Of a DNA stretch of 38,626 bases, positions 9,846 through 35,200 are shown one piece after another. The stretch is from the NCBI GenBank assembly GCA_944363675.1, contig CALVUT010000040.1:1-38626 (forward strand). The letters run 5' to 3'. The notes beneath the pieces are model-generated. The model saw nothing but the letters and a program-made list of their open reading frames with translations. It searched no databases and was not told the DNA's origin. The translations under genes were made by a program, and so were the position numbers. The DNA comes from an uncultured Bacilli bacterium (lineage in GTDB: Bacteria > Bacillota_I > Bacilli_A > RF39 > UBA660). Numbering within the stretch: position 1 is the stretch's first letter; every line of letters starts with the position of its first letter.

Positions 9846-9846
9846 A

Positions 9847-11027: not shown

Positions 11028-11060
11028 AAAAAAATCAAAAAATTGATTGGGGGGATATGT

Positions 11061-11249
11061 ATGTATATAAAACGTATTACTTTTAGAATACCAATAGATT
11101 TGTATACAAAAGTAAAGATATTAGCAAATCAAAATTGTATTAGTTTTAACAAACAGCTCATAGAGTTAGTTGCTTTTGGAATACGTGCATTTTTAGAAAA
11201 AGCCCAAGAAACAACTGTATTGAAAGATGAGGGTTTACAAAATGAATGA
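11061..11249 (+). CDS. Arc-like ribbon-helix-helix DNA-binding protein
   Basis: KRITFRIPIDLYTKVKILA...SFNKQL; RBS GGGGGGA before ATG 11061. Confidence 0.8.
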   Translation: MYIKRITFRIPIDLYTKVKILANQNCISFNKQLIELVAFGIRAFLEKAQETTVLKDEGLQNE

Positions 11250-12943: not shown

Positions 12944-12964
12944 TAAACGTAAAGGGGGAATATC

Positions 12965-14164: not shown

Positions 14165-14310
14165 TAGAAATTATTTTATCTATTGTGATAATGGTTTTAA
14201 TTTTGTTTCTTTTTTCAGCATTAAAAATATCTTCTATGTGTTCGCATGATGAAGAATTGGACAATATGCAAAAAATACTATTTGAATGGAGTGATAGAAA
14301 TGAGCAATGA
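14161..14310 (+). CDS. Small single-TM protein (49 aa)
   Basis: ATGA overlap with the upstream stop, RBS GGAG; MIEIILSIVIMVLILFLFSALKISSMCSHDEE... Confidence 0.65.
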   Translation: MIEIILSIVIMVLILFLFSALKISSMCSHDEELDNMQKILFEWSDRNEQ

Positions 14311-15442: not shown

Positions 15443-15466
15443 AAAGATCTAGAGGGGGGAAATATA

Positions 15467-15712
15467 ATGGATTTTACTAGACTAAATAATGAATTTTTGA
15501 ATATGCAAAAAAAATTAGAAGATAATGAAATATGTATAAAAAAATTAAAACTTTTTATAAAAAGTATAGATAAAGAAATCATAAAATTGGAAGCTAAAAG
15601 AAAAAATGAAAAAGATGTAGTACAAAATGCGATTTATTGTAGCATTATAGAAATCAAAAAAAATTATAGAAAGGAACTTGAGAAAATTTTGAGTATAGAG
15701 GTTAAAGAATAG
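15467..15712 (+). CDS. Hypothetical coiled-coil protein (81 aa)
   Basis: RBS GAGGGGGG; heptad-like Lys/Glu/Leu pattern. Confidence 0.65.
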   Translation: MDFTRLNNEFLNMQKKLEDNEICIKKLKLFIKSIDKEIIKLEAKRKNEKDVVQNAIYCSIIEIKKNYRKELEKILSIEVKE

Positions 15713-15717
15713 AAGGT

Positions 15718-17829: not shown

Positions 17830-17842
17830 GGGGTGATTAGTT

Positions 17843-18070
17843 ATGTATATAAATAATTTAGGAAAAATAATTCGCTCTGAGCGTAGAAGTTGGGGAATGA
17901 GTAAAAGAAAGTTAGCTAAATTATCATATACTGATGTAGAAACGATTGAAGATATAGAATCTGGAAAAGAAAAAAATCCAGATTTTTTTCTTATGCTAAA
18001 AATTTGCGACATATTGGAAATAAGCGTTTTTACTTTATTAAAAGAAAAGAACTTTTTGAAAGGAGAATAG
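17843..18070 (+). CDS. XRE-family HTH transcriptional regulator
   Basis: LGKIIRSERRSWGMSKRKLA...IEDIESG..KNP...LKICDILEIS. Confidence 0.88.
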   Translation: MYINNLGKIIRSERRSWGMSKRKLAKLSYTDVETIEDIESGKEKNPDFFLMLKICDILEISVFTLLKEKNFLKGE

Positions 18071-18074
18071 ATAT

Positions 18075-18665
18075 ATGAGAAAGGCATTAATGTTAGGTGT
18101 TGTATTTTTTTTAATAGGATTTACTATATTAAGTTTTAGCGTTTATCAGGATATACAATATGCACATGAAGATGAAAAAATGTTAGAAGATTTTTTTGCA
18201 TCTGAATATCAATCCGATAATGTAAATATGAGTAAAAATGATTCAAAAACAAATGATTCTGAAAATTATATCAATTCCTATCTTGCAGTAATAGAAATAC
18301 CGAGTTTGAATTTAAAGACTGGAATAGTTATGAGTAATTCTTCTTTCACTACGATGGACCGAAATGTAAGCATATATCCAACTTCAACTATGCCAGATCA
18401 ACACGGAAATTTTATTTTGTTTGCTCATAGCGGGAATAGTCGAACTTCTTATTTTAAAAACATTTGGAATTTGAAAATAGAAGATGAAATCTATATTTAT
18501 TATCATAATGTTAAATATGTTTATAAGGTTTCTAACGTTTCAGAAGTTTCTATGTATAATAACAAACCAATAGAGAATGAAGGCAAAGATAAAATTACAT
18601 TGATTACATGTAATCCGCAAGACAACAGTGTTCGAATAGTTGTACAGGGGGAAAAACATGAATGA
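18075..18665 (+). CDS. Sortase (class D/E-like)
   Basis: N-terminal [24 protein letters not shown], downstream catalytic Arg (VRIVV). Confidence 0.9.
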
Positions 18666-21600
18666 TAAGGACACTCTTCTTAAATTTATAAAATTTGCTT
18701 CTCAATTTTACAAAGCAAGTTACTATAGCTATGATAATGTTTTAAATTTGTATAATTTAACTGATGGTAAAGGCAAAAAGTTTGCTACATATGATGATTG
18801 GAATCGTAATGGTAGACGTATAAAAAGAGGAGAACACGGGTATCGTATATTAACAGATAATCAATGGAAAATAGTAGTTTTTGATATATCACAAACTTGG
18901 GGAAGAACTATAAATTTTTCATTATTTAATAAAAGGAAAACACCAGTAATTCTTGAAAATCTGATTAGTGAATATAATTTAGATAATCTTGATAAAAATG
19001 ATGAAGAAGATAAAAATTTTTATAAAACAATTTATGATATTAGTCTTAAAATGATTGATAAAAAGCAATATGGGTTTTCTGATTCAGAAAAGTCATTTGT
19101 ATCATGTGTAACAGCATTATTAGTTTTAAATCGATGTGATTATATTATTGATAACTTAGCAGATGAATATTTATTTTTGAATGGCAATGATAATAATTCC
19201 TATTTATTAGATACAGCATATTATTTTTATAAAAACTTAATGTTTAAAATCAAAGATTTAGAAAAAAAATTAGAACCTTTAGAAAAAAGTCCTATTCAGT
19301 TAAGTGAAGAGAGTAGTGAAGAAATCAATCAAGAACGAGAACCAATAATTGCTTTGCAATCTTCACTTTTTTCTTTAGAGGAGTCAGAAGAAGAGAAAGA
19401 GCTAAAACATTTGTTAAAAAACGGAAATAATTTTTCTAAAGGTGATCAAGTAATTTATCGTATTATAACAACAGTTTCTGATAAAAAAGAAGCAATAAAA
19501 AAATTAAAAGAGTCTTTTGGAACAGGTGGTTATTCTTATACTTATTTAGATGGAGAGAGTGGTTTTGTTGATTATGATTCAAAAGGAATAACTATTTATC
19601 CTAATGATGAATATGAGTTGCCAATGGAATATAATTGGGATAAAGTATATGAATTTTATCAAATTTTAATTGCTAATAGAGAGTTTCCAGAAAAAAATCT
19701 TTTACGAAAATTAGAAAACCTAGAATCGAATAAAAGTAAAATATTAAATAATGTTTATCATATAACCGATTTGGATATGGCTTATCAATTTTTAGATATT
19801 GTGTATGACAAATATCCTTTAGATGAACTGAAAGAGCTAATTGATAAAATAGATAATGATAAAAGATTTATTGAGAATTATTATGAAACTTTGGAAGATA
19901 TAGAGCAAGCTACCAATCTATTAGATAATCTTATAGAAAGCAAAAAAATTAAAAAAGAAGATGTATTTTCGATAAAAACAACACAAGCTGAATATCCCCA
20001 AAAAGAAATTACAATTTCACTTTCTCCATTTTCCAAAATAAAAAGTGTATCTAGTAAAAAAGAGAAAGAACAACAAGTTTTGGATTTATTTGAAAGTGAT
20101 AGTTCCCAAGAAGAAAACTCCATTGATCAACAAGAACCATTTTATCAAGTAGTTGAACAAACAAATACTCCTACAAGCGACGTTGAGCTATCTGACAAAG
20201 AAATAGCTTCTTATGATACTGATAGAAACAAATTAGATAATCATGAAGAAAAAGAAATTTCAAACAGCAATTATTATATTGAAAATAATATTACATATGG
20301 TAGTGAAAAAACAAAGTACAAAAACAATGTTGCAGCAATTAGACTTTTAAAAAAATTGGAAAAAAACAATGAAATGCCCACTAAAGAAGAACAAGATATT
20401 TTAGCAAAATATTCGGGTTGGGGAGGAATAGCAAGTGCATTTTCTTCTACACGTAATGATTGGTCTAATGAATATGAAGAATTAAGAGGATTATTAATTA
20501 ATGGCGAAGATGAAACGGATTATGAAAAGGCACGTGAGTCAACTCTAACATCTTTTTATACTCCAAATAATGTAATTAAAGCAATGTGGAAAATAATTGA
20601 AAAATTTGGTTTTAGAAATGGTAATATTTTAGAACCCTCAATGGGTATTGGAAATTTTTTTGGAAATATTCCTAAACAATTCGAAAAATCAAAACTTTAT
20701 GGTATTGAACTTGATAATATTAGTGGTAGAATCGCTAAAATGTTATATCCTAACGCGAATATAGAGATAAATGGGTATGAAGAAACCAATTTTCAAGATA
20801 ATTTTTTTGATTTAGCGATTAGTAACATTCCATTTGGAAATTTTTCGGTTTTTGATAGAAAATATAAAAATAGTAATTTTTTGATTCATGATTATTATTT
20901 TCAGAAAACTTTAGATAAGCTTCGAGCAGGAGGCATTGTTGCTTTTATAACTTCCACAAGTACTTTAGATAGAGCTGATAACAGCATACGAAAATATATT
21001 GCTGAACGTGCAGAATTAATTGGCGCCTTTCGTTTACCAAATACCACATTTCAAGAAATAGCCAACACTAAAGTATCATCAGATGTGATTTTTCTTAAAA
21101 AAAGAGACAAATTGGATTTGTCTACTAATCCTTCATGGTTAAATGTTAGTCAGAATGAAGATGGAATTCCTATAAATAATTACTACTTAGAACATCCAGA
21201 AATGTTACTCGGAAAAATGGAGTTTGACGCTTCCATGTATGGTAACGAAAAAAATACTTCGTTGCATTCATTTGATGATGTTACGCTTGATGAGTTGTTA
21301 GATAAAGTGGTTGACTCTTTTAAATCAAACATTTATACTCAGGTTGAGTTAGAAGACAAAAATCAGCAAGACATCATTCCAGCACTTCCTAACCTAAAAA
21401 ATAATGCTTATGTATTAATAGAAGACACATTATATCAGAGAAATGATTCAATTATGATTCCACTAAAAAATCAAGAAGGAAAAATAGCCAGTCGTATCAA
21501 AGCTATGATAGGGGTACGTGATAAATTAAAAGAAGTATTTGATGTTCAATTGCGTGATGGAAGTGATGAGGAATTAAGTATAGCTCAAAAGCAGTTAACA

Positions 21601-24600
21601 ATTGAGTATGACTCTTTTGTTGAAAAATATGGTTTTCTTAACAATAAAGCAAATTTACAGGCTTTTTCCGACGATCCAGATTGTTATCTGATTTCTTCTA
21701 TCGAAGATGAATATAAAGAAAATGATATTGTACTTTACAAAAAGGGGGATGTATTTTTTAAGAGAACCGTTAGAAAATCAAAAGACTTATTGCAGGCTGA
21801 AACTCCAATGGAAGCACTAACAATTTCCATTCATGAACGAAATTATGTTGATTTATCATTTATGAAGAGCCTTATTAATATGAGTGAAGATCAAATAATA
21901 GAACAATTAGATGGCATTATTTATAAAGAACCGACAATATCTAAAGAACGTGGTGAAGATTTTTGGGTGGTAGCTGATGAATATTTATCAGGAAATGTCA
22001 GAGAAAAGTTAAAACAAGCAGAATTATTAAATGAGAACGGTTCTTTGGATAAAAATATAGAAGCCTTAAAAGCAGTGCAACCTGAAGAATTGACAGTGGA
22101 TGATATTGATATTTCTTTGGGGGCCGTGTGGATTCCTCCGAGAATCATAAAAAAGTTTTGTATTGATTTATTAGATATTTCATATTACTACCGAGATTAT
22201 TTGTTTGTTGATTACGTACCTGAAACCAATTTATGGGTATTACAAAGATCAGGAGTTCAATTTGATAGTGAGGTAAAAAATACCAAAACTTGGGGAACAA
22301 AAAGAGCAGACGCATTAACACTTATTAAGTGCTCTCTTAATTTAAAAAATATTTCTGTTTACGATAAAACTGATGATGGTGCATCTATCTTTAATCCTAA
22401 AGAAACTGCTATAGCGCGTGAAAAGCAAAATGAAATTAAAGAAGAATTTAACAACTGGATTTTAAAAAATGAATATGTAAAAAATGAACTGGTAGAAATT
22501 TATAATGAAAAATTTAACTCAATTCGTTTGAGAGAATATGATGGATCATACTTAGAATTTAAAGGAATGGCCACAAATATAAATTTAAGAACTCATCAAA
22601 AAAATGCTATTGCTCGTATTTTACTAGGAGGGAATACACTACTGGCTCATAGTGTAGGAGCTGGAAAAACTTTTGAGATGGCTGCAGCATGTATGGAATT
22701 GAAACGCTTAGGAATTGCCAATAAACCAATGATTATAGTTCCCAATCATTTAACAGAACAATGGGGAAAAGAATTTGTAAGATTATATCCTTTTTCTCAC
22801 ATTCTGGTTGCAACCAAAAAAGATTTTCAGAAGATTAATCGCCAAAAATTTATGACTCGTATAGCAACAGGGGAATGGGATGCAGTAATAGTCGGACACA
22901 GTTCCTTTGAAAAAATACCAGTTTCAAAAGAACTACAATTAAACCATATTAATAATGAAATAAAAAATATAGAAATGGCAATCGAACGACTTAAAATGGA
23001 ACATGGCGAAAGATTTAGTGTAAAAAAAATGGAAGCTATGAAAAAAGGTCTAACTAAAAAGTTTCAAAAATTATTGAGTGAAGAAAAAAAAGATGAAACC
23101 ATTAATTTCGAGCAATTAGGTGTGGACTATTTATTTGTTGACGAAGCACATGAATTTAAAAATTTAGCTCTATTTTCTAAAATGACCAATGTGTCTGGTA
23201 TTAGCTCTGTTGCCAGTCAGAAAGCTAGCGATTTATATATGAAAATTAGATATTTGGATTCATTAAAACCAAATAATTGTGTTGTATTCGCTACAGGAAC
23301 ACCAATCTCAAATTCAATTGCAGAACTGTATACTATGCAAAAATATTTGCAATATAACACTTTAAAACAAATGGGACTTGAGTATTTTGACAGTTGGGCT
23401 AGCGTTTTTGGACAAACTATTACAACATTAGAACTATCCCCTGATAATGGTGGATTTAGAAATAAAACTAGATTTGCAAAATTTAATAATGTTCCAGAGT
23501 TATTAAATTTGTTTAAAAATATTGCTGATGTTCAAACAGCTAAAACATTACAGTTGCCAGTTCCAAAGCTGAAATTTAATCGTTATGAAATTATTTCGGC
23601 ACCAAAAAGTAATGAGCTATCACAGTATATTGAAGAATTGGTACGACGTAGTGAGGATATTAAAAATAATGTTGTAGCTCCATATGAAGATAATATGTTA
23701 AAGGTAACGAATGATGGTAGAAAAGCTGCACTAGATTTGCGATTAATAGATGAAAATATGCCTGATTTACCTGATAGCAAAATAAATTTAGCAGTTAATA
23801 ATATAACCCAGATATATAACGATACTAAGAAAGACAATTTAACTCAATTAGTATTTTGTGATTTATCTACACCTAAAGCAGACAAGAGTTTTAATATTTA
23901 TGATGATATTAAAACTAAGCTTATCAAAAATGGAGTAGAGGAAAATGAAATAGCATTTATTCATGATGCTGATACTGAACAAAAGAAAGCTGAATTATTT
24001 GAAGATGTACGGACAGGTAAAATAAGAATACTTCTAGGCTCAACCTTTAAAATGGGTGCTGGAATGAATGTTCAAAACAAATTAATTGCATTGCATCATT
24101 TAGATTGTCCATGGAGACCTAGTGATATAGAGCAGAGAGAAGGTCGGATACTTCGTCAGGGAAATGAAAATGAAGAGGTTCAGATTTTTCGATACGTAAC
24201 GGAAAGTTCATTTGACGGATATTCCTATCAATTAATTGAAACTAAAGCCAACTTTATTAATCAAATTATGACTTCTAATGTTAGTGCTAGAACCATGGAA
24301 GATGTTGATAATAGTGCTTTAAGTTATTCTGAAGTTAAAGCTATTGCAACTGGAAATCCACTCATTATGGAAAAGTTTAAAGTTGAAACTGAATTAAAAC
24401 AAATTACCCTATTAAAAGCCAAATATGATTCATCTAAAAAAGAAATGGAAAATGACGTATTAATAAATTATCCTAAAGAATTGAATGAACATAAACAAAT
24501 TTTAAAATTAATTGAGCAAGACTTGCCATTGGTAGTTGATACATCAGGCGAAAATTTTTGCATAGAAATCATGGGGACGGTATATGATGAACGTTCTAAA

Positions 24601-25032
24601 GCTAGTGAAAAGTTTGCAACATTAAATTCTATCTTAAAATTAGAGGAAAGAGTTCTTGGACACATTAGTGGTTTTGAAATAGTAGGAAGTAAAGACCAAG
24701 TTATGAATTTATCTCACTTTTATTTAAAGGGGGCATACAAATATCCAATAGAAACATCATCTAGTTCTTTAGGAAACATCATTAAAATTGAAAATGTATT
24801 AAAAAATATTGAAAATCGCAAAACTATTGAAATAGAAACGATTGATAAAATTAATAAAAAATTAAGCCAAACGCAAGAAGAGTTAAAAAAACCGTTTAAT
24901 AAAATAGAAGAATTAAAAGAATTATTGTTGAAAAAAAATAAAATATATAAAGAATTAGGAATTGATCAAGACGAAGAACAAATAATGTTTGATAATGAAT
25001 TAAATGCAAAACAATATGAACTAGATTTATAA
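18658..25032 (+). CDS. DarB-like giant protein: ArdC-like N-terminal domain, N6-adenine methyltransferase, SNF2 helicase
   Basis: [31 protein letters not shown] (ArdC-N); [20 protein letters not shown] (MTase); [29 protein letters not shown] (SF2). RBS GGGGG favours ATG 18658. Confidence 0.92.
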
Positions 25033-25054
25033 AAATATTTTTGCTAAATAGTAC

Positions 25055-25085
25055 TTGATTTTTTTGGGGATTTGAGTGATAAATT
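25055..25085 (+). promoter_or_regulatory. Putative promoter
   Basis: TTGATT followed by extended -10 TGaTAAATT; 19-nt spacing is non-optimal. Confidence 0.4.
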
Positions 25086-25098
25086 GTTTGAAACAAAA

Positions 25099-25203
25099 AA
25101 GCGTTTTTAGACTGTTTATAAGATTGTGATTTAGAGTAATGCCAGCGTTTTATCTACTGGACGTCATAAAATTAATCAACGTAATACGGGCTTAAAAATG
25201 CTT
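25099..25203. repeat. Long imperfect inverted repeat (structured leader)
   Basis: AAGCGTTTTTAGACTGT pairs with ACGGGCTTAAAAATGCTT; inner arms GATTGTGATTT/AAATTAATC and CCAG/CTGG. Confidence 0.65.
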
Positions 25204-25219
25204 CTGAAGGAGGAAGATT

Positions 25220-25735
25220 ATGAAAGAAAAAATTAGTGAGCAAACAAAAGATGCAGTAATTCAATTTAGAAAGCTGGAGGATTCTAATAAGCTTTACTTT
25301 ATGAGTGTAATATTAAACCACTTGACGAATGGTTTAATTAATGATGGAAATTATTTAGATAGTGATACTGCTTATGATAATAACAAATTAGTGTTAGACT
25401 CAAACAGTATTAATTTTGATGATCCTATGAAACTTGCAACAGAACTATTAATTTTAGCAGCTAAAAAGGAAAATATAACTTTGGATCCGAATGGTATTGA
25501 TATAGAACCATATGTAAAAAATAAAAAAGCAATAGAACCAGGGCTGTCATCTTTTTACAAACTGAAATTATATGACAAAATAGATTTTTTGATGGAAACG
25601 TTATATGACATATCAGAAATTGATGAAGTAGAAAAAACAGAATTTGATTTTAATGAATTAATTCATGAACTATTAAATTATCAAGAAGAATATTTTGGCT
25701 TTGATGAAGAAAATGAAACAATGTTAGAAACATAG
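25220..25735 (+). CDS. Acidic hypothetical protein with internal duplication
   Basis: Strong RBS AAGGAGG; FRKLEDSNKLYFMSVIL resembles FYKLKLYDKIDFLMETL. Confidence 0.8.
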   Translation: MKEKISEQTKDAVIQFRKLEDSNKLYFMSVILNHLTNGLINDGNYLDSDTAYDNNKLVLDSNSINFDDPMKLATELLILAAKKENITLDPNGIDIEPYVKNKKAIEPGLSSFYKLKLYDKIDFLMETLYDISEIDEVEKTEFDFNELIHELLNYQEEYFGFDEENETMLET

Positions 25736-25762
25736 TGAAATGTATGATTTATGCCGAGAAAA

Positions 25763-25874
25763 TCCATTGACAATAGGCATTTAAAATTTGTCATGCTAAA
25801 AGCAAAAGCAACATGTTTTTTGTTGCTTTTGTCGTAATTAACAGAATTTTAAATGGGTTCCTGTTGTCAATGGA
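25763..25874. repeat. 112-nt nested hairpin; inner stem may also act as a terminator
   Basis: TCCATTGACAATAGG/CCTGTTGTCAATGGA, CATTTAAAATTTGT/ACAGAATTTTAAATG, CAAAAGCAACA/TGTTGCTTTTG. Confidence 0.8.
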
Positions 25875-25968
25875 GGAATTGGAATAAATGGATTATAAAA
25901 ATTTAAAAAAGTTGTTATGAAGATTTGATATGGGTATGTAATACTGGCTGTTGAGGGGGGTTGGTATT

Positions 25969-26181
25969 ATGAATTACGGAGAAAGAAGTGATAAATATAA
26001 GGAAATAATTGAGGAATACGTTTATATGAAAACTATGCTATCACAAATTAGCATGGTAATAAGTGAAGAAGAATATAAAAGAATAAAAAAATTAATCGAC
26101 GAAAATTATTTAAAAAAAATAGCATTATATATCCCGTATCAAGACTTTATATCATCTAAAAAAATTTTAGTGAGTGTTTGA
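25969..26181 (+). CDS. Small SHOCT-like protein upstream of the recombinase (candidate recombination directionality factor)
   Basis: ML...ISEEEYKRIKKLIDENY pattern typical of small genes before Firmicutes large serine recombinases; RBS GAGGGGGG before ATG 25969. Confidence 0.6.
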   Translation: MNYGERSDKYKEIIEEYVYMKTMLSQISMVISEEEYKRIKKLIDENYLKKIALYIPYQDFISSKKILVSV

Positions 26182-26202
26182 TTTCAATATTATAGAAAGG
26201 TT

Positions 26203-27999
26203 ATGAATAATATGGAAGATAAAACACTTAAAACAAAAGAAATTAATTTTGATGAATTAAAAGAAGGTAAAAATGTAATAACTAAAGAATTTGCACAATC
26301 TTATACGAAAATGCGTTTAAAGGTAGCTGCATATGTTAGAGTAAGTACTGATTTTGAAGAGCAACAAACAAGTTTTCATTCTCAATATGTATATTATGAT
26401 GGATTAATTAAGCAAAATCCAAACTGGGAATTTGCAGGAATATATGCTGATGAGGGTCTTTCTGGTACACAAACCAAAAATCGCGATTCTTTTAATAAAA
26501 TGATAAAAGATGCGCTTAATGAGAAAATCGACATGATTATTACAAAGTCTATTTCAAGATTTGCTAGAAATACTGTAGATACACTAAATATTGTAAGGTT
26601 GCTGAAATCACATAATGTTGATGTATTTTTTGAAAAAGAAAATATACATACTTTTTCTGTTACTAATGAGCTCTTTTTAACATTGTATAGTGCGTTTGCT
26701 CAAGCAGAAAGTGAATCTATTTCGGAAAATATGAAGTCTGGATTGCAAATGAAAATGAAACGTGGAGAATATGTTGGATGTCCTGAGTGTTATGGCTATG
26801 ATTGGAATAAAGAAGCAAAAACTTTGGAGATTAATACTGAAAAAGCTAAAATCGTTAAAAGGATTTTTGAAGAATATGCTCGAGGATATGGTTCTGGCAG
26901 GATTTGTAAAGGATTAAATAATGACAAAATACTTAGTCCAACTGGAAAAAGATGGAGTCCATCTACCATTCGAAGATTACTATTTAACGAAAAATATTTA
27001 GGTGATCTTTGTACTGGAAAAACCTTTGTTGAAAGCCCTGTAACTCATAGAAAGAAAATGAATCAAGGTCAATCTAAACAATGGTATACGGAAAACAAAC
27101 ATGAAGCAATTATCTCAAAGGAGTTGTGGATGAAAGCACATGAAATGTATAAAAAAAGAAGCGATAAATCTAAAAATCATCGTGATAAATATAGTAGAAG
27201 ATACGCTTTTAGCAGCAAGATTTATTGCGGATTTTGTGGAGAACGATTTGTAAGAAGATCTTATATAAAAAATAAAAAAGATATGAACAGTGAAAGAGTA
27301 ATATTTTGGGGATGTAGAAGTCAATTTCATGAAATCTCTTGTGAGAATAAAATTAAATATAAAGATGAAGAGCTAAAAAAAATGTTTGTGTTTTTATTTA
27401 ATCAATTATATAGTGATAAAGATAAATATGTAAAACAGTTTTTACATTATGTAGATACAGTATTGAATAAAGATAACATAGAAAAAGAAATTTATTCATT
27501 AGAAAAAGAACGTGATATGATTGTACAAAAACAATCAAAACTATTGGATTTAGCCCTAGACAATAAAATATCTAAACAAGTTTTAGATAGTAAAATGGCT
27601 GAATTAGATATAAAACACGAAGAAATAAAAGAGGCTTTAGAAAAATTACATCAACATTCTCAATTGAAAAGTGAAAAAATTGCACAAATGAATAAGATAA
27701 TTAGTATAATTGAAGAAAAACGCGAATTAAAAGAATTTGACGATGACATATTTGAAGCTTTAGTAGATAGGATTGTGATTGGAAAAAAATTAGATGATGG
27801 TACTTTTGATTACAAAAGCATACAATTCATTTTAAAAACATCTGAAATAATTACGAATGAAGATATAAAAGGCTTGATTTCAGAGAAAATAAATGATAAA
27901 TTTAGTACGTATAATGAATCCTTGCGCGTAACGAGCGAGGATAAAAAAACTGGCTTGACTGCATATAGGTGCGCCAAGCGATTATGGTTACGCAACTGA
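26203..27999 (+). CDS. Large serine recombinase (integrase)
   Basis: VAAYVRVST catalytic Ser, YADEGLSG, KSISRFARN, recombinase domain (YGY, NEKYLG, HEAIIS), Zn ribbon CGFCG...WGC...C, coiled coil. Confidence 0.95.
   Translation: MNNMEDKTLKTKEINFDELKEGKNVITKEFAQSYTKMRLKVAAYVRVSTDFEEQQTSFHSQYVYYDGLIKQNPNWEFAGIYADEGLSGTQTKNRDSFNKMIKDALNEKIDMIITKSISRFARNTVDTLNIVRLLKSHNVDVFFEKENIHTFSVTNELFLTLYSAFAQAESESISENMKSGLQMKMKRGEYVGCPECYGYDWNKEAKTLEINTEKAKIVKRIFEEYARGYGSGRICKGLNNDKILSPTGKRWSPSTIRRLLFNEKYLGDLCTGKTFVESPVTHRKKMNQGQSKQWYTENKHEAIISKELWMKAHEMYKKRSDKSKNHRDKYSRRYAFSSKIYCGFCGERFVRRSYIKNKKDMNSERVIFWGCRSQFHEISCENKIKYKDEELKKMFVFLFNQLYSDKDKYVKQFLHYVDTVLNKDNIEKEIYSLEKERDMIVQKQSKLLDLALDNKISKQVLDSKMAELDIKHEEIKEALEKLHQHSQLKSEKIAQMNKIISIIEEKRELKEFDDDIFEALVDRIVIGKKLDDGTFDYKSIQFILKTSEIITNEDIKGLISEKINDKFSTYNESLRVTSEDKKTGLTAYRCAKRLWLRN
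27950..27998. other. Putative attR junction (crossover near 27972-27976)
   Basis: Host-like frame CCA AGC GAT TAT GGT TAC GCA (PSDYGYA) starts at 27974. Immediately upstream that frame reads LHIGA and then hits a stop (27956-58), not the GLMY recalled for this family. Confidence 0.65.
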
Positions 28000-28309
28000 T
28001 GGCAGTAGTCTAGATAATATGACTATACAAGAATGCTGGGAATTTCCTTTGGCTAATTGGGATGGATTGTGTTCGGCTCATTGGATGCCTTATTCGACTT
28101 GGACTATCACTCCTTCGTCAAGCAATTCGACTGCTGTTTTTTCCAGTGGGGACAGTGGCCAATTGGACTCTATGAGGGTGAACTATTCTTCCATTTTTGG
28201 CTTTGGAGGCGGTATTGGGGCAACTCCTGTAGTTTATCTTTCTGCTAATGTAAGAATTGTTTCTGGAACAGGAACTGAAGATGATCCGTACATTTTATCT
28301 ATTGGGTAG
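27974..28309 (+). pseudogene. C-terminal fragment of a host surface-protein gene interrupted by the ICE
   Basis: PSDYGYATD...WTITP...GATPVVYLSANVRIVSGTGTEDDPYIL; C-terminus homologous to 28430-29122; no RBS or N-terminus of its own. Confidence 0.75.
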
Positions 28310-28394: not shown

Positions 28395-29122
28395 ATGAAA
28401 ATAAAATATTTTTAGGTATCTCTATTTTAATGATTTTAGGAAGTATTATAGCTATAGGAAATAGACCAGTTCATAATTTTATTGAATATGATGAGAATAC
28501 TACCTTAGCTTTATTTGATGAAAATGGCGAGAAGATTGACAAAGTTCCTTCTAAAGATAGTGGATACACATTAGATACGGAAAGATCTGGTTGTTCGAAT
28601 GGAAGCATTTCTTGGGATGCTGAATTCTGGAGTCCTATTGTTACTGTAAATAGTGAAGTAAATGGCAGAGTAAGTTGTATTCTATATTTTAAAGAGATAA
28701 CTGCTTATGATAAGTGTATTATGGAATATGGGAGTGATTCGGCGCAATGTAATATTTTAGCTGATTTAGATGAAGAAGTTTGTCCAACAGTAGATGAGAA
28801 TGGCAACGTTTTAGTAAGTTCTGCTGAAAGTGAAAATGGTTATTTATGTAGTGTGCCAGATGATTATGGCACAAGTTATTATTACCGAGGAAATGTTACA
28901 AATACTAAATACTATCTATATACAGGATATAATTACTGGGCTATGACACCAGCTAGTTATGTAAATGGTAATGCGATTGCTCGTTACATTGATGCTAGCG
29001 GTTTTGGAAGTAACTATGATGAAGTCTATGAATCATATGGTATTAAACCTGTCATAAATCTAAAAGCAAATAGTCTAAAATCTGGCGATGGAACAATGGA
29101 AAATCCATACAGTATACTTTAG
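28395..29122 (+). pseudogene. Second paralog of the same exported protein family, probably degenerate (start frameshift and internal deletion)
   Basis: ORF 28430-29122 ends YWAMTP...GIKPVINLKANSLKSGDGTMENPY. Its signal-like helix extends upstream of ATG 28430, while ATG 28395 is out of frame by one base. YYYRGNVTN joins directly to TKYYLYTG. Confidence 0.55.
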
Positions 29123-29158: not shown

Positions 29159-29235
29159 CTTTTGAAAAATAAGTTTGTTCGCTAGTAATTTGCCCTGATT
29201 GATGATATACTTAAGTAGCAAGGTGGGTGATGAAC

Positions 29236-32151
29236 ATGTTTGTACCAATTAAGGTTATGACCGATTATTCTATGTTACAAAGCATGATCACTATCCCTAA
29301 ACTTATACTTTTTCTCAAAAAATATCATATTCAAACTTGTGGTATCTGCGATAAAAATTTATTTGGCCTCATGGAGTTTTACACAAGTATGAAAAATGAA
29401 AACATTAAACCTTTGCTTGGGTTTGAAATTGTCGTAGACTCTATTCCGCTATACCTTTATGCCCGAAATTATAAAGGCTACCAAGCCTTACTTAAAATAA
29501 ATACCTTAAACCAATCCGATGAACTTCATTTAGGCACTTTAGAGCAATTTGAGCAAAATTTAAATATCATTTTACCTTATTTATTTTTAAATCATTATAA
29601 AGATTTAAAAGAAAAATTTACGCATCTTTATATAGGCTATACAACCGAATACGAAAAGAACAACGCTAATGTCGTTACCGAAAACATTATTTTTTGTCCA
29701 AATATCAAAGCCTTTTCTATAAAAGACAGCGAATACTTAAATCTTTTGAAAGCTATTGATCTAGGAGAATCTCTAAAAGTAATGCTCAAAGAAAATTATG
29801 AAAAAAACACCTTTGAATATTATTTGAATGAAAAAATGGAAGACGATAAAACAAGCGAATTTATAGAATCTTGTACTGTGGAATTTCCTCAAAATATCCA
29901 TTACATTCCCAAGTTTCAAGAAAACGTAGATTCAAACAGCTACCTTATTGCGTTAGCCAAAAAAGGTTTAGCTAAAAGATGTCAAAATAAAGTGCCAGAA
30001 GAATATAGTAGTCGTTTAAAATATGAATTATCGGTGATTCAAAAAATGGGCTTTGCTGACTATTTTTTAATTGTCTATGACTATGTAAAATATGCCAAAA
30101 CCCATAATGTGTTAGTCGGTGTTGGTCGTGGTAGTGCGGTTGGTTCATTAGTGAGTTATTCTTTAGGTATAACCGATGTCGATCCTTTAAAATACCATTT
30201 ACTTTTCGAACGATTCTTAAATCCGGATCGTATTACGATGCCAGATATTGATATTGACTTTGAAGAAAGTGGTCGTGAAAAAGTCGTGGCTTATGTAAAG
30301 TCACGTTATGGTGAAAATTGTGTAGCCAATATCATTACCTTTGGAACACTAAAAAGTAAACTCGTCTTAAGAAGTGTCGGGAAAGCTTTAGAAGTAAATC
30401 CTGTTGTTATCGATTCCTTCGTCAATAAAATGGATGCTAAACTAACATTAAAAGAAAACCTCATGAACAAAGATCTGGCATATTATGTAACCCAAAATCA
30501 AGAAATCAAAAGAATGGTTCAAGCTGCCTTACAAATCGAAGGATTAAAAAAACACTCTTCGACACATGCCGCCGGTGTTGTAATATCCAGTGTTCCTTTA
30601 GATGAAGTCATCCCGACTTTTTATAACGGAACAGATCTATTAACAGGGTTTACTATGAACTATTTAGAAGACATGGGCCTTTTAAAAATGGACTTCTTAG
30701 TAATTACAAACTTGACCATTATGAAAAATGTGTTAGAATTGATCTACCAAAACACAGGCCAAAAATTAGATTTAAAAAACATTAATTTAAATGATCCTAA
30801 AGTTTTAGAAACATTTGCCAAAGCAGATACCATAGGTATTTTTCAATTTGAAAGTGAAGGAATGAAAAATTTCTTGCGTAAACTAAAACCAAATAAATTC
30901 TTAGATATTGTCTCTGCAATTGCTTTATTTAGACCAGGACCTATGGAAAATATTGATACTTATATTCGTCGTAAAGAAGGTAAAGAAAAAATCACCTATC
31001 TTCATGAAGACTTAAAAGATATTCTAAGTGAAACATATGGAATTATCGTTTATCAAGAACAAATTATGCAAATTTTAAGTCGCATCGGAGGTTTTAGCTT
31101 TGCCGAAGCCGATACCGTGCGAAGAGCAATGAGCAAAAAGAAAAAAGAATTAATTGAAAGCTTTGAAGCAAAATTTCTTGCCACAGCTATCCAAAAAGGA
31201 TATACAGAACAATTAGCAAAAGAAATTTACGCTTTGATCTTGAAATTTGCAAATTATGGATTTAATAAATCCCATTCAGTTGCCTATGCTATGATTGGAT
31301 ATCAAATGGCTTATTTAAAATGCTATTATCCTTTGTATTTCATTGCCAATTTATTAAATATGAACATTGACTCAGTGACGAAAACAAAAGAATACTTAGC
31401 TTTAGCTAAACAATCAGGAATAATGATATTGCCTCCAGATATCAATTTGAGTTCTTTAACTTATGTAACAAAAGAAAATACGTTGAGACTTCCGTTTGGC
31501 ATAATCAAAAACCTAGGTGTGGAAATGTCAAAAGCCATCGTTTCCAACCGTGGATCCATTGCCTATAGTGATTTTTTTGATTTCGTAAAAAGAAACTATA
31601 AAAATGCCGTTCATCGCAACACCATTGAAGCCTTAATTAAAGCTGGAGCCTTTGATTCTTTCGGATACAATCACAACACACTAACATATAATATAGACTC
31701 AGCTTTAAACTACGCCATGTTATCGAGTGATTTAGCTGATGACTACGTCATGAAACCAACTATGGAACTACAGCCACAAGAACCAGAAGAGACTTCGCGT
31801 CAAGATGAACTGGAAACCTTTGGGTTTTATTTAAGTAATCACCCAGCCAGCAAATACATGGATAAGACTATAATGAAATTAGAAAGAATAGATAAAAATT
31901 ACGATAATCGAGTCCGTTTAGTCGTGTTAATAGATCGTATTAAATCCATTTTGACCAAAAAAGGCGAGAAAATGGCTTTTGTGACAGCAAGTGACGAAAC
32001 CGCTTCTGGAAACTTTGTTTTCTTCGCACCTTTAATGAAAGAATTAGAAAAAGTGAAAGTCGGGGATTTAGTGTGTATAGAAGGGCGCGTGGCCAGACGT
32101 TTTGCCGACTATCAAGTGAATGTGAATAAAGTGACAAAAATCGGTGAATAA
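29236..32151 (+). CDS. dnaE: DNA polymerase III alpha subunit (DnaE type)
   Basis: GRGSAVGS, LLFERFLNPDRITMPDIDIDF, STHAAGVV, GLLKMDFL, YGFNKSHS, C-terminal OB fold. Start is 29227, 29230 or 29236; extended -10 TGaTATACT at 29203-29211. Confidence 0.97.
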   Translation: MFVPIKVMTDYSMLQSMITIPKLILFLKKYHIQTCGICDKNLFGLMEFYTSMKNENIKPLLGFEIVVDSIPLYLYARNYKGYQALLKINTLNQSDELHLGTLEQFEQNLNIILPYLFLNHYKDLKEKFTHLYIGYTTEYEKNNANVVTENIIFCPNIKAFSIKDSEYLNLLKAIDLGESLKVMLKENYEKNTFEYYLNEKMEDDKTSEFIESCTVEFPQNIHYIPKFQENVDSNSYLIALAKKGLAKRCQNKVPEEYSSRLKYELSVIQKMGFADYFLIVYDYVKYAKTHNVLVGVGRGSAVGSLVSYSLGITDVDPLKYHLLFERFLNPDRITMPDIDIDFEESGREKVVAYVKSRYGENCVANIITFGTLKSKLVLRSVGKALEVNPVVIDSFVNKMDAKLTLKENLMNKDLAYYVTQNQEIKRMVQAALQIEGLKKHSSTHAAGVVISSVPLDEVIPTFYNGTDLLTGFTMNYLEDMGLLKMDFLVITNLTIMKNVLELIYQNTGQKLDLKNINLNDPKVLETFAKADTIGIFQFESEGMKNFLRKLKPNKFLDIVSAIALFRPGPMENIDTYIRRKEGKEKITYLHEDLKDILSETYGIIVYQEQIMQILSRIGGFSFAEADTVRRAMSKKKKELIESFEAKFLATAIQKGYTEQLAKEIYALILKFANYGFNKSHSVAYAMIGYQMAYLKCYYPLYFIANLLNMNIDSVTKTKEYLALAKQSGIMILPPDINLSSLTYVTKENTLRLPFGIIKNLGVEMSKAIVSNRGSIAYSDFFDFVKRNYKNAVHRNTIEALIKAGAFDSFGYNHNTLTYNIDSALNYAMLSSDLADDYVMKPTMELQPQEPEETSRQDELETFGFYLSNHPASKYMDKTIMKLERIDKNYDNRVRLVVLIDRIKSILTKKGEKMAFVTASDETASGNFVFFAPLMKELEKVKVGDLVCIEGRVARRFADYQVNVNKVTKIGE

Positions 32152-32154
32152 GAA

Positions 32155-32183
32155 TAGACAAAAAAGATAAATCGTGTTATAAG
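32155..32183 (+). promoter_or_regulatory. Putative polC promoter
   Basis: TAGACA-N17-TATAAG with TG extension. Confidence 0.5.
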
Positions 32184-32201
32184 AAGGAAGGAGAGTGTAT
32201 T

Positions 32202-35200
32202 ATGCAGGATGATGTAGTAAGGTTTTTAGATAGCATTTCTTATGAAAAAGATCGGAAAAGTCTAAAAGATATAGAAATAGAAAAAGTATATTTAAATAAA
32301 GCAAAAAAATTATTTGATGTAGTCATGCGATGCAAAAGACCACTGCCGTATGAAACAGCCAGTGAACTCATACTAGCAAGTAAAAATGGTATTCATCATA
32401 AAGAAAATTGCGTAATCACATTTAAATATGATGAAATTAAAGAAGAAGATATTCTCGTTTATATGACAGAATTATTGAAAATATATAAAATGAAAAAGCC
32501 TTCTTTAGGGGGAATACTAAGTAATTTACCAACAATAGAAAATCATACGATTTCCTTTGAAGTTGGAAATAAAGCTGAAGAAGAAGATCTCAAAAGAGAG
32601 TTTTATTTTATGGAAAGTGAAATGAGTACGTTTGGATTTAATGACCTTTCTTTTACAACCGTGATGAACGAAGAACTTCAAAAAAGTATCAAAGAAGAAA
32701 TTGAACGGGAGAAAAAGGAAACGACGATCAAAGAAGAAAAGCCTAAAATCGAGGGTAACCTTCTTTTAGGAAAAGAAATCCATGGCGAACCAACGGCCAT
32801 TAATAATATCATGGGCGAGTCGAAAGGAATTATTTTAGAAGCTTATATTTTTGGAATAGATACTTTAGAACGTGAAACAATTAATATCATAACATTAAAA
32901 ATTAGTGATAAAACAAACTCTTTACTTGCTAAAATATTCAAAAAAGACAAAAAAGAATACCAGGCAATATTGGGTTCTTTAAAAGAAGGAAACTGGTATC
33001 GCTTTCAAGGAAACGTTGAATACGACAACTTTGCCAAAGACTTTGTTTTGGGAATTCGCAATCTAGAAAAAATAGATAGCAAAGACGCAGCCAATATAGA
33101 TGATGCCGAGACTCCACGAGTGGAATTACATGCCCATACTATGATGAGTGCTATGGATGGGGTCATCGATGCAACTAAACTTGTAAATTACGTTGCTAAG
33201 CTAGGGCAAAAAGCAATTGCAGTCACAGATCATAACTGTGTGCAAGCCTTCCCAGATCTTTTCCATGCAGTTGAAAAAATAAATAAAGGTAAAGAAGGTA
33301 AAGATCGCTTTAAAGTTTTGTATGGAGCTGAGATGAATATTGTTAATGATGATGTCGATTTTATCTTTAATCCTCGTGAATATCATCTTTTAGATTCAAC
33401 TTTTGTTGTTTTCGATACCGAAACCACAGGTTTTTATGCCGGATCAGACCAAATGATTGAAATAGGTGCTGTTAAAATTCAAAATGGGAAAATCTTAGAT
33501 CGTTTTGATGAACTGATTGATCCTCATCGTCCTTTACCAAAGAAAATTACCGAACTAACCTTTATTACGGATGAAATGCTGGCTGGTAAAGACACAGAAG
33601 AAAACGTAACCAAAAGATTTTTAGACTGGGCAGGCGATTTGCCAATGGTTGCTCACAATGCGAAGTTTGATATTTCTTTTATGAAAGCTGCTTGTACCAA
33701 ATATGGTTTTAAAGAATTTGATGCTACTGTTTTAGATACGATGAGTTTGGCAAGAATGTTGCATCCTGAGTGGCCAAATCATAAACTTCAAACTTTAACC
33801 AAACGTCTTGATGTACCTTGGGATGAAGAAAAACACCACCGAGCCGACTATGATGCTGAAGGAACAGCCTTATGCTTTTATAAGATGTGTGAAGTATTAA
33901 GTAGCCGTAATATTGAAACAACAACAGATTTATTGGAAGAAGTCGATATGGATGCTTTAGTACGGTTCTCCTATCCTTTCCATGCTACTCTTATTGCCAA
34001 AGATCGAGTAGGTCTAAAAAATCTATTCAAAATCATCTCCATTGCCAACACAAAATATTTATATAAAAATGAACAGCCAAAAATTCCAAGGCGAGAAGTT
34101 GAAAAGTTAAGAGAAGGTCTTTTAATTGGCTCAGGTTGTGTAAATGGCGAGATCTTTGATAAAGCAGGCAGCAAAGAAGATGAAGAACTAGTAAACATGA
34201 TGAGCTTTTATGATTATATAGAGGTTCAACCTGTCAGTGTCTTTACGCATTTAATTGGCCCAGAAAGAAAGTTTAGCAATACATATGAAGCTGAAGAATA
34301 TTTAAAAAGAATTATCCGGATAGCCAAAGAAGCTGGTAAACCAGTTGTCGCAACTGGAGATGTTCATAATTTAACCAAAGAAGATAAAATCTATCGAGAA
34401 ATTATCGTCAATCAAAAATTCAATGGTAAACTTCATCCTTTAAACAGAAGGGGAATGGAAGTGCCGAATATGTATTTAAAAACAACTGCCGAAATGTTGG
34501 AAGAGTTTTCCTTCTTAAGTGCTGAAGAAGCCTATGAAATTGTTGTTGAAAACACCAATAAAATTGCCGATGAAGTAAGTGAAGTTGAAGTCATTATTGA
34601 TACGAAGGGAATTCCTTTCGCACCCAAAATTGATAATTCGCAAATGATCGTTACCGATATGGTTTATGCTAAAGCTAAAGAATGGTATGGCGAACCTTTG
34701 CCTTATCACATTGAAGAACGAATTGCTCTAGAACTTTACGGGGCTCCTTTTATCGAAGCTGTAAAGAAAAATGCCGAATCAGAAGAAGACAGCATCATTT
34801 ATAAAAGACTTCATGACATCGTTACAAAAGGACCGGATGCTGTGCAAAAAGAAATCGCATTAAGCTTACAAAAAGAAAATACTGAATGGACAGAAGAAGA
34901 TGCCTTAAAAGAAGCCAAAGGGAAAATGACCGCGATTATTGGAGCAAACTTTGACGTCATCTATTTAATTGCTCAAAAGCTCGTTAAACACTCAAATGAC
35001 GAAGGATTCTTAGTAGGTTCCCGTGGTTCTGTTGGTTCCTCTTTTGTTGCCAATCTCATGGGAATTACGGAAGTAAACTCTCTTGCTCCGCATTATCGTT
35101 GCCCAAACTGTAAATTTAGTGAATTTAACGATGAAAATGGTGAGCCATTAGGTAACAATTACAAATGTGGTTTTGATCTTCCGGATTATAAATGCCCAAA

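What the first reader, a model, noticed from the sequence alone, without database searches (positions are those of the whole stretch)
27950..28309. Serine-recombinase ICE inserted into a conserved motif of a multicopy surface-protein gene family
Seen: at the end of the recombinase a host-like frame begins abruptly at PSDYGYA (27974). It runs to a WT-x-TP...P-V-V-Y-L...SG-x-GT...PY end that is shared with the next gene. Recalled, not searched: this domain normally reads GLMYPSDYGYA and occurs in many copies in RF39-like Bacilli. Inference: attB is a conserved coding motif present in many paralogs. The element would then have many landing sites, switch a surface gene off on integration and restore it on excision, as the skin element does for sigK. 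With two elements or promiscuous att pairing it could swap N- and C-terminal halves between paralogs, giving recombinase-driven surface diversification.
Basis: partly seen in the sequence, partly recalled or inferred. Interest (0 to 1): 0.82.

Follow-up and report, generated by a model that had tools for sequence, protein, structure and literature searches.

The report
Conjugative element targeting a multicopy-gene motif
A 43-kb conjugative element has cut one member of a large family of membrane-anchored gut-bacterial proteins in two at a conserved, naturally palindromic coding motif, and the same element sits at that motif in different family members in other genomes, so it has many possible landing sites.

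Summary
Window 1-27981 is the right 28 kb of an integrative conjugative element (ICE) of about 42.8 kb. Its large serine recombinase (LSR, 26203-27999) abuts attR. The frame from 27974 is the last ~110 codons of a family gene of about 430 codons. The missing N-terminal 320 codons lie on contig C71 of the same genome, end in ...GLMYPS and join in frame.

In the closest relative, the C71 flank and dnaE lie 536 nt apart on one contig, so this was a simple insertion.

The crossover is most likely the GA of the Asp codon. It sits at the centre of a natural palindrome made by the Y-P-S-D-Y-G-Y codons.

That motif occurs 0-51 times per genome (523 matches in 47 genomes of the genus). The same ICE interrupts at least 6 different family genes there. 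A second LSR lineage, 24-32% identical, uses the same GA.

The multi-site attB inference is therefore supported. The skin-like switch and the swapping of gene halves are not. All four sequencing runs laid hold the occupied site, no chimera was seen, and shared C-terminal halves on different N-terminal halves are rare.

The closest precedent is Tn5397/TndX, which targets Fic-domain DNA with a GA core. I rate this a new variant of a known kind, of moderate interest.

The parts
1..27981 (+). Right-hand 28 kb of an integrative conjugative element of about 42.8 kb. The window starts inside the element.
   Evidence: Window 1-27996 matches G201/G219 contig C1 (reverse strand 15991-44002) at 99.1% nt. 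In that contig the element measures 42,817 bp from GA to GA, with both ends present.
1096..4152 (+). Element-borne surface adhesin with SpaA repeats and a thioester domain. A sortase gene lies at 18075-18665.
   Evidence: Pfam SpaA 7.5e-95, TED 9.7e-8. Sortase 4.4e-23.
5076..10746 (+). Mating-channel genes: T4SS pilin-like protein (5076-5411), VirB4-like ATPase (7158-9617) and M23 peptidase (9847-10746).
   Evidence: Pfam T4SS_pilin 7.4e-7, DUF87 2.7e-11, Peptidase_M23 2.5e-19.
11582..17829 (+). DNA-processing genes: a MobL-like relaxase (11582-12943; both Pfam matches just under Pfam's score cut-offs) and the type IV coupling protein (15718-17829).
   Evidence: Pfam MobL 1.3e-6 (28.1 bits against a cut-off of 28.5) and Relaxase 3e-4 (21.5 against 24.6), both below Pfam's score cut-offs. 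T4SS-DNA_transf 9.8e-61, TraG-D_C 1.3e-27.
18640..25032 (+). 2130-residue SNF2-type helicase with an ArdC-like N-terminus.
   Evidence: Pfam SNF2-rel_dom 2.5e-10, Helicase_C 1.6e-6, ArdcN 1e-3.
26203..27999 (+). Large serine recombinase, 598 residues. Its last 5 codons and its stop lie beyond the crossover, in host DNA.
   Evidence: Pfam Resolvase, Recombinase and Zn_ribbon_recom. NCBIfam best match CcrB-like, 2.8e-45, far below that model's cut-off. Tail lengths.
27957..27979 (+). Element-side arm of attR (P arm). It is repeated in inverted form at the element's left end on contig C71.
   Evidence: The arm occurs only twice in the genome: at C40 27957 and, inverted with one difference, at C71 91-111. 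The same pair occurs in G219.
27980..27981 (+). Probable crossover dinucleotide GA, the first two bases of the Asp codon.
   Evidence: GA is the centre of symmetry of both the reconstructed element site and the intact host site. The AG three bases upstream is not excluded.
27982..28309 (+). 3' fragment of the interrupted family gene, about 109 codons with no start of its own. It is the hypervariable C-terminal part of a DUF6273-like domain.
   Evidence: It matches residues 304-411 of the 411-residue paralog on C80 (39% id) and residues 317-422 of 422 on C38. The N-terminal partner is on C71.
28430..29122 (+). Neighbouring paralog of the sister subfamily, only 230 residues. It lacks about 165 central residues, including the motif.
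   Evidence: Residues 1-187 and 158-229 match two separate stretches of 435-445-residue paralogs.
29227..36731 (+). Host flank: dnaE (29227-32151) and polC (32202-36731), used as the synteny anchor.
   Evidence: Pfam match for polC. The dnaE flank is collinear with the C71 flank in G242 contig C12.

Best explanation
The window holds the right end of an integrative conjugative element of about 42.8 kb. Its large serine recombinase integrated it into the coding sequence of a membrane-anchored protein with a DUF6273-like (C-type-lectin-like) domain. The break is in the Asp codon of the motif GLMYPS|DYGYA.

In this low-GC host the motif's codons form an imperfect palindrome, TATCCA-AGT-GA-TTA-TGGATA, centred on a GA. 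The element's own site is a 21-23-nt inverted repeat around the same GA. That is the layout a serine integrase needs: two dyad-symmetric sites with a shared central dinucleotide.

The motif is the best-conserved stretch of a family that has up to 51 motif copies per genome. The element therefore finds an attB in nearly every host of the genus, and usually in many copies.

Insertion truncates one copy. What remains is 320 codons plus 12 element codons and then a stop, and the C-terminal 109 codons are left without a start. The cost is probably small because paralogs remain.

Shown here: the two junctions, the in-frame join, the collinear flanks, reuse of the motif in different genes, and near-identity of the element between two diverged host species.

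Inferred: the exact crossover base pair, that excision would restore the gene, and that redundancy is why this target is tolerated.
For: 1. Both halves of the gene.
- The C71 frame ends ...GKVGLMYPS, then EVGAPICSPLLQL and a stop. The window frame continues DYGYATDG....
- The element arm occurs exactly twice in the genome, inverted, at these two places.

2. One locus.
- In G242 (flanks 87-90% nt identical) the C71 flank and dnaE lie 536 nt apart on one contig.
- The two flanks are adjacent in G237, G207 and G235.

3. A complete copy elsewhere.
- In G219 (the same genome as G201), contig C1 holds the whole element, 42,817 bp, with both junctions in another family gene.
- The element is 99.1% identical to the window, whereas dnaE of the two hosts is 68% identical. 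That points to recent transfer.

4. Different genes, same motif.
- Right junctions: G000, G219, G217, G244 and metagenome locus L156.
- Left junctions: G000, G219, G218, G244 and proteins P0130 and P0187.
- This makes 6 distinct N-terminal halves.
- The 5 C-terminal fragments are 34-46% identical pairwise.

5. The arm occurs in 6 of 47 genomes of the genus.

6. Other recombinases at the same place.
- A second recombinase lineage, 24-32% identical, lies at the same GA in G212, G203 and G216. Its arm is in 4 of 47 genomes.
- A 58%-identical recombinase (L032) sits at ...AS|EIAFAGG... of the sister subfamily.

7. Copy number of the motif.
- The degenerate 23-mer is found in 42 of 47 genomes, with 523 matches, 0-51 per genome and a median of 8. 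The reversed control gives 0.
- The sites used match the family consensus at 16-18 of 20 bases on the left and 13-19 of 20 on the right. That lies within the range of 38 unoccupied sites (12-20 and 13-20).

8. Conjugation genes are present.
Against: - No empty site or intact allele of this particular gene was found. The best full-length database relative of the N-terminal half is 61-62% identical. G242 lacks the gene altogether.
- All 4 of 4 runs laid hold the occupied form, and no loose end at the junction was among the 24 listed. A further 101 were not shown, and contigs drop rare variants. Excision, and mobility in this host, are therefore not shown.
- This genome has only 2 exact motif sites left, on C80 and C38, plus a variant on C91. 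'Many landing sites' holds for the genus more than for this genome.
- One right junction (G217) has T instead of C before the GA. Either the element arm varies or the crossover lies 3 bases further left.
- In G217 only the last 51 residues of the recombinase match. In metagenome loci L148 and L156 the recombinase reads in two frames near residue 275. Some copies may therefore be decaying.
- The family's own copies in this genome do not reach any Pfam threshold.
Confidence: 0.87

Rival explanations
1. Reversible gene switch of the skin/sigK kind. The element would be a resident intervening sequence whose regulated excision turns this surface gene on in some cells.
For: A precise in-frame join is possible. 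The recombinase is intact in G000 and G219. The recombinase reading frame changes its tail between the integrated form (5 or 9 codons) and the circular form (46 codons).
Against: The element carries a full conjugation set. It is 99.1% identical in a host whose dnaE is 68% identical, so it behaves as a transmissible element. The interrupted gene is one of many paralogs. The closest relative lacks the gene entirely. All 4 of 4 runs show the occupied site, with no empty-site contig listed.
Confidence: 0.05
2. Recombinase-driven shuffling. Recombination between junctions in different paralogs would exchange C-terminal variable parts and diversify the surface proteins.
For: The break lies at the boundary between the conserved scaffold and the hypervariable C-terminal part. 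Of 208 protein pairs with N-terminal parts 90% or more identical, 86 have C-terminal parts under 70% identical. The change point lies 10-20 residues after the Asp in 65 of those 86. Many near-identical sites occur per genome, and two recombinase lineages share the site.
Against: The two halves in G000 lie at one syntenic locus. No genome examined has two copies of one element type, or both types. The same C-terminal part on a different N-terminal part is rare: 2 of 63 pairs, and the one of them inspected (P0016-P0083) differs in a variable middle stretch, not at the motif. Homologous recombination at the conserved block, or fast divergence, explains the mosaic equally well.
Confidence: 0.05
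3. Relaxed-specificity transposition of the TndX kind. The element would insert almost anywhere with a GA, and the motif hits would be a sampling effect.
For: The GA core is the one reported for Tn5397 (PMC4430133, passages read). By the operational definition of Durrant et al., this recombinase cluster would count as multi-targeting (PMC10083194, passages read).
Against: Every junction of this element type found lies at the same codon position of the same motif: 5 right and 6 left junctions. No DUF4368 match was found in the recombinase at E <= 0.01. That domain marks 63% of the multi-targeting clade.
Confidence: 0.03

Closest known systems
Tn5397 and its large serine recombinase TndX (Clostridioides difficile)
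   Same: Both are conjugative elements moved by a large serine recombinase. Both insert into DNA that encodes a conserved protein domain, at more than one site in a genome, with a central GA dinucleotide (PMC4430133, passages read). The authors already suggest that a ubiquitous domain makes a good target for a promiscuous element.
   Different: The target here is a motif of a DUF6273-like surface-protein family with 0-51 motif matches per genome, against two preferred Fic-domain sites. The recombinase shows no DUF4368 match. Its identity to TndX was not measured. No off-motif insertion was seen.
Multi-targeting and shared-target LSRs of Durrant et al. 2022 (PMC10083194)
   Same: The paper defines LSR clusters at 90% identity that hit several target-gene clusters at 50% identity. 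It names 'sequences that occur at multiple different sites' as one possible cause. It also reports distant LSRs sharing one coding-sequence site (passages read).
   Different: The case here is a site-specific-looking LSR whose many targets come from a conserved motif in paralogs, not from loose specificity. The paper's supplementary tables, which may list this target family, were not available.
skin element / SpoIVCA in sigK, and other gene-interrupting elements that carry serine recombinases
   Same: A serine recombinase element splits a coding sequence, and precise excision would restore the frame.
   Different: Those elements are non-transmissible, sit in a single-copy regulatory gene, and excise under developmental control (recalled). 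PMC5025042 was seen only in a search listing. Here the element is conjugative, the gene is one of many paralogs, and no excision was seen.
DUF6273 (PF19789) C-type-lectin-like domains: targets of diversity-generating retroelements, and the N-terminal domain of the Thomasclavelia ramosa IgA peptidase
   Same: Relatives P0028 and P0191 pass the Pfam threshold over nearly the whole domain. The best Foldseek match of the paralog model is that peptidase (9qa6, E 4e-3). Its N-terminal domain is DUF6273 (PMC12402451, passage read). The fold is reported as C-type-lectin-like with a variable region (PMC10743442, passages read).
   Different: The copies in this genome do not reach any Pfam threshold. 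No retroelement was looked for. The structural model is of moderate confidence (mean pLDDT 71).

Membership tests
Large serine recombinase (serine integrase) | N-terminal resolvase catalytic domain followed by a recombinase domain and a zinc-ribbon domain | tested here: met
   Pfam PF00239 8e-32 (residues 41-189), PF07508 5e-28 (213-319), PF13408 6e-7 (336-395). All three are above their cut-offs.
Large serine recombinase (serine integrase) | Dyad-symmetric attachment sites that share a central dinucleotide | tested here: met
   The inverted arms of the element flank a GA. The intact host sites read TATCCA-AGT-GA-TTA-TGGATA. The exact crossover is inferred from symmetry, not shown.
Large serine recombinase (serine integrase) | Catalysis of attP x attB recombination | not testable with these tools
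   This needs an in vitro or in vivo assay.
Integrative conjugative element | Integrase plus coupling protein, VirB4-type ATPase and relaxase inside one element bounded by junctions | tested here: met
   for the genes. The relaxase call is the weakest: both Pfam matches lie just under their score cut-offs (MobL 28.1 bits against 28.5; Relaxase 21.5 against 24.6). for the complete 42,817-bp copy with both junctions in G219.
Integrative conjugative element | Excision and transfer | tested here: inconclusive
   Transfer is implied: the element is 99.1% identical between hosts whose dnaE is 68% identical. No circular or empty-site form was seen in the contigs of 4 runs.
TndX-like multi-targeting LSR clade | DUF4368 domain, present in 63% of the clade according to PMC10083194 | tested here: not met
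   No such match at E <= 0.01. The feature is not universal in the clade, so this lowers membership without excluding it.
TndX-like multi-targeting LSR clade | Insertion at many unrelated sequences | tested here: not met
   All 11 junctions of this element type lie at the same motif.
DUF6273 (PF19789) domain proteins (the target gene) | Match to the Pfam model above the gathering score | tested here: inconclusive
   The copies in this genome give no match. 9 of 38 aligned relatives match at E <= 0.1. P0028 (29.6 bits) and P0191 (26.4 bits) exceed the cut-off of 23.5.
skin-like developmentally excised intervening element | Regulated excision that reconstitutes a needed single-copy gene, and loss of transmissibility | tested here: not met
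   The target is multicopy, the conjugation genes are intact, and 4 of 4 runs hold the occupied site. Regulation itself cannot be tested here.

The most novel reading that the evidence does not exclude
The conserved block ...GLMYPSDYGYATSGG... may be more than a convenient landing pad. It may be the recombination joint of a cassette system. It sits exactly where a conserved lectin-like scaffold meets a hypervariable C-terminal binding part. It is a natural serine-recombinase substrate. At least two unrelated recombinase lineages have adopted it. Elements lodged in different paralogs could then exchange, invert or delete C-terminal cassettes and reshape the cell surface of these gut bacteria.
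Probability: 0.06. Interest if true: 0.8.

Novelty: new variant of a known kind. Interest (0 to 1): 0.55.

Why it matters
It shows a way for an integrating element to get a wide host range at low cost. It keeps a site-specific serine recombinase but aims it at the most conserved stretch of a large, redundant gene family. The stretch is palindromic only because of its codons.

This differs from two usual routes. One is targeting a single essential gene end and repairing it. The other is loosening specificity.

For genome engineering, it offers a recombinase with dozens of natural, near-identical landing sites in uncultured, reduced-genome gut Bacilli.

For annotation, it explains truncated members of this family. 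Frames ending ...PSEVGAPICSPLLQL, and orphan fragments of about 110 codons, are element junctions rather than decay.

Tried and rejected
- Empty site. The database search with the N-terminal half found no intact allele; the best full-length hit is 61-62% identical. The closest relative lacks the gene. G236 and G213 have other DNA between the flanks, with no family gene.
- Excision evidence. Only contigs were available for the four runs. They bridge the occupied junction and show nothing else at 27980 among the rows listed.
- Family-wide sample. One genome per genus was searched (200 genomes besides G000). The nearest recombinases are 48-51% identical, and none showed the motif downstream.
- Apparent circular-form junction in G243 C87. 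It has no recombinase and is followed by host genes, so it is a short relic of the two element ends.
- Second match of the type-2 arm in G203 C13. This is a chance match.
- Structure. The AlphaFold2 model of the C80 paralog has mean pLDDT 71. Foldseek found nothing at E <= 0.001, and the best row is weak.
- Earlier findings of this scan. Nothing was found by place, by words or by sequence.
- Literature. Searches found no description of this element or target. Supplements were closed, so the LSR target tables of PMC10083194 could not be checked.
- Taxonomy. NCBI lists Candidatus Ventrenecus, the name carried by some homologs, only as Bacteria incertae sedis. The passage search in PMC8035907 found nothing in the part of the text that is held.
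Full report
WHAT IS IN THE WINDOW

The window is a whole contig, C40, of a 1.34-Mb genome in 102 contigs with 31.6% GC. Positions 1 to about 27980 encode a conjugation set:
- a T4SS pilin-like protein;
- a VirB4-like ATPase;
- an M23 peptidase;
- a MobL-like relaxase (both Pfam matches lie just under Pfam's score cut-offs);
- a type IV coupling protein;
- a sortase with a SpaA/thioester adhesin;
- a 2130-residue SNF2 helicase with an ArdC-like N-terminus;
- as the last gene, a 598-residue large serine recombinase at 26203..27999.

To the right lie an orphan frame (27959..28309), a 230-residue paralog (28430..29122), dnaE, polC and efp.

THE OBSERVATION

- It matches the last ~110 residues of 411-422-residue paralogs on contigs C80 and C38.
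- Its end aligns with the end of the neighbouring gene at 34% identity over 68 residues, E 2e-5.
- An alignment of 38 family proteins gives the consensus ...WTGKIGLMYPSDYGYATSGGS.... This is the most conserved stretch of the protein.

THE MISSING HALF

Contig C71 carries, 77 nt from its end, a 329-codon frame. It begins MKLEKFKERNNKK..., has a membrane anchor, and ends ...TTWIGKVGLMYPS, followed by EVGAPICSPLLQL and a stop.

The DNA after the Ser codon is the inverted copy of the 21 nt that precede the junction in the window. That arm occurs nowhere else in the genome.

Joining C71 to the window at the shared GA gives an uninterrupted ...GLMYPSDYGYA... frame.

ONE LOCUS, SIMPLE INSERTION

G242 is the closest genome of the genus; its flanks are 87-90% identical to G000. 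There, the C71 flank and dnaE lie on one contig, 536 nt apart. Between them is only a transposase-like fragment: no target gene, no element, no short paralog.

In G237, G207 and G235 the two flanks are adjacent. C71 and C40 are therefore neighbours, and the two gene halves belong to one locus.

A COMPLETE COPY ELSEWHERE

A chicken-gut genome of the same genus appears under two handles, G201 and G219. It holds the same element on one 59.7-kb contig, 42,817 bp from GA to GA. Both junctions lie in another family gene...GSIGLMYPS | DYGYATSGGNNIDRE....

The element is 99.1% identical to the window over 28 kb. The host flanks do not match at the nucleotide level, and dnaE is 68% identical. That is the signature of recent horizontal transfer.

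In G000 the left part of the element is spread over C71 and C67. Similar pieces on C16, C20, C81 and C1 point to a second, related element. The genome's only other large serine recombinase found (C21, 44% identical) sits in the 3' end of serS.

THE SITE

All left junctions read ...AGT-GA-AGTTGGTGCACC.... The right junctions read ...GGTGCGCCAAG-C-GA-TTATGG..., with T for C in one case.
- The element arms are symmetric around the GA.
- So is the intact host site: TATCCA-AGT-GA-TTA-TGGATA, the codons of Y-P-S-D-Y-G-Y.
- I therefore place the crossover at the GA at 27980-27981. The AG three bases to the left is not excluded.

COPY NUMBER OF THE SITE

A degenerate 23-mer for YPSDYG(Y/F)A was searched in the 47 genomes of the genus.
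- It is found in 42 of the 47, with 523 matches.
- Counts run from 0 to 51 per genome, with a median of 8.
- The reversed control pattern gives none.
- G000 itself has 2 exact sites (C80, C38) and a variant on C91.

The sites that were used match the family consensus as well as 38 unoccupied sites do.

The family is very large. At least 6623 database proteins score E <= 1e-5, and the few that carry a name (3 of the 120 listed) are called hypothetical proteins of Candidatus Ventrenecus species.

REUSE OF THE MOTIF

For this element type I found the following junctions.
- Right junctions: G000, G219, G217, G244 and a metagenome contig (L156, recombinase 94% identical).
- Left junctions: G000, G219, G218, G244 and two database proteins, P0130 and P0187, that end ...PSEVGAPICSPLLQL or ...ASEVGAPICSPLLQL.

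That makes at least 6 different genes. The five C-terminal fragments are 34-46% identical to each other. L148 repeats the window's own junction and is not independent. The arm is present in 6 of the 47 genomes of the genus.

A second recombinase lineage, 24-32% identical, lies at the same GA in three further genes in G212, G203 and G216. Its arm is also at a contig end in G252.

A 58%-identical recombinase (L032) sits at ...AS|EIAFAGG... of a sister-subfamily gene. The rest of that gene aligns with the same C-terminal domain.

More distant relatives use serS, a penicillin-binding protein gene and other sites.

THE TARGET PROTEIN

The copies in this genome match no Pfam or NCBIfam model. The link to DUF6273 rests on relatives and on literature.
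- 9 of 38 aligned relatives match DUF6273 at E <= 0.1, and two pass the curated cut-off over nearly the whole domain.
- The paralog model (pLDDT 71) has an N-terminal helix followed by a beta-rich body. Its best, weak Foldseek match is the Thomasclavelia ramosa IgA peptidase.
- The N-terminal domain of that peptidase is DUF6273 (PMC12402451, passage).
- DUF6273 is described as C-type-lectin-like and as a target of diversity-generating retroelements (PMC10743442, passages).

The break thus falls inside the domain, just ahead of its hypervariable end.

THE BOLDER IDEAS

Switch like skin.
- Contigs of 4 runs from 4 studies all bridge the occupied junction (records 3, 12, 17 and 25).
- No alternative form was listed.
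- No intact allele exists in the protein database searched.
- Rare excision cannot be excluded from contigs.

Half swapping. In 191 family proteins, 86 of 208 pairs with N-terminal parts 90% or more identical have C-terminal parts under 70% identical. The change point lies 10-20 residues after the Asp in 65 of those 86. That shows a sharp boundary between scaffold and variable part at the motif block.

The reciprocal pattern, the same C-terminal part on a different N-terminal part, is rare. It occurs in 2 of 63 pairs. In the one of the two that was inspected (P0016-P0083) the difference lies in a variable middle stretch, not at the motif.

No genome showed two elements of one type, or both types. 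The idea is not excluded, but nothing here needs it.

COMPARISON WITH WHAT IS KNOWN

Tn5397/TndX is the nearest precedent. It is a conjugative element with a large serine recombinase, aimed at DNA encoding a Fic domain. It has two preferred sites and a GA core, and its authors argue that a ubiquitous domain is a good target (PMC4430133, passages).

Durrant et al. define multi-targeting LSRs and name multi-copy target sequences as one cause. They also report distant LSRs sharing one coding site (PMC10083194, passages).

Three things are new here:
- the target is a palindromic codon motif in a family with up to 51 motif copies per genome;
- the specificity appears strict rather than loose, since all 11 junctions lie at one position and there is no DUF4368 match;
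- at least two recombinase lineages share the same dinucleotide.

My literature searches found no description of it. Supplementary tables could not be read.

VERDICT

The core inference, a conserved multicopy coding motif serving as attB, is supported. The switch and shuffling ideas are unsupported. This is a new variant of a known kind, of moderate interest.

Noticed in passing
G000 contig C21 19366-21132 (minus strand): The genome's only other large serine recombinase found (44% identical) lies directly upstream of the last ~50 codons of a seryl-tRNA synthetase-like gene. L013, from another genus, shows the same arrangement. Pieces on C16, C20, C81 and C1 resemble the left part of the ICE at 85-96% identity, which suggests a second, related element.
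   Followed up: partly
window 28430-29122: The neighbouring paralog has 230 residues instead of about 435. Residues 1-187 and 158-229 match two separate stretches of full-length paralogs. About 165 central residues, including the motif, are therefore missing, apparently through a deletion between two similar YY..G..YW stretches.
   Followed up: partly
window 27982-27999; G219 contig C1: The recombinase reading frame runs across the crossover. Its tail is 5 host-encoded codons in this genome and 9 in G219. It would be 46 element-encoded codons in the circular form. Whether the tail matters for activity or direction is unknown.
   Followed up: partly
L268 (G243:C87:21075-24095): A short relic consists of about 50 nt of the element's right end joined to about 80 nt of its left end around ...CAAGTGAAGG.... 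It has no recombinase and is followed by host genes (a thioredoxin-like protein and a tRNA methyltransferase-like protein). It looks like an element site left in a chromosome.
   Followed up: partly
L148 and L156 (metagenome contigs): In both contigs the recombinase matches in two overlapping pieces in different frames near residue 275. This is either a frameshift or an assembly error. In the window the gene is intact.
   Followed up: no
L267 (G217:C131): The right junction is present, but only the last 51 residues of the recombinase match upstream. This is probably a decayed copy. It is also the one junction with T instead of C before the GA.
   Followed up: no
L018 (G081:C33) and L012 (G197:C9): Recombinases 38% and 47% identical are each followed by the extreme C-terminal end of a similar domain. 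In L018 the fragment starts at ...YYWTMS... and matches DUF6273 positions 129-171 at E 5e-4, below the cut-off. Other lineages may therefore use a second conserved motif of the same kind of gene.
   Followed up: partly
L274 (G242:C12:14000-22000), about 3965-4500: At the syntenic locus the closest relative has only a 536-nt spacer with a fragment of a transposase-like gene. The slot between the C71 flank and dnaE is therefore variable across the genus: empty in G237, G207 and G235, and holding other DNA in G236 and G213.
   Followed up: partly
family proteins P0001-P0204: There is a sharp mosaic. Many pairs are 90-98% identical up to the motif block and 50-70% identical after it, including indels. 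The cause (recombination, hypermutation or selection) was not resolved. No diversity-generating retroelement was searched for.
   Followed up: partly
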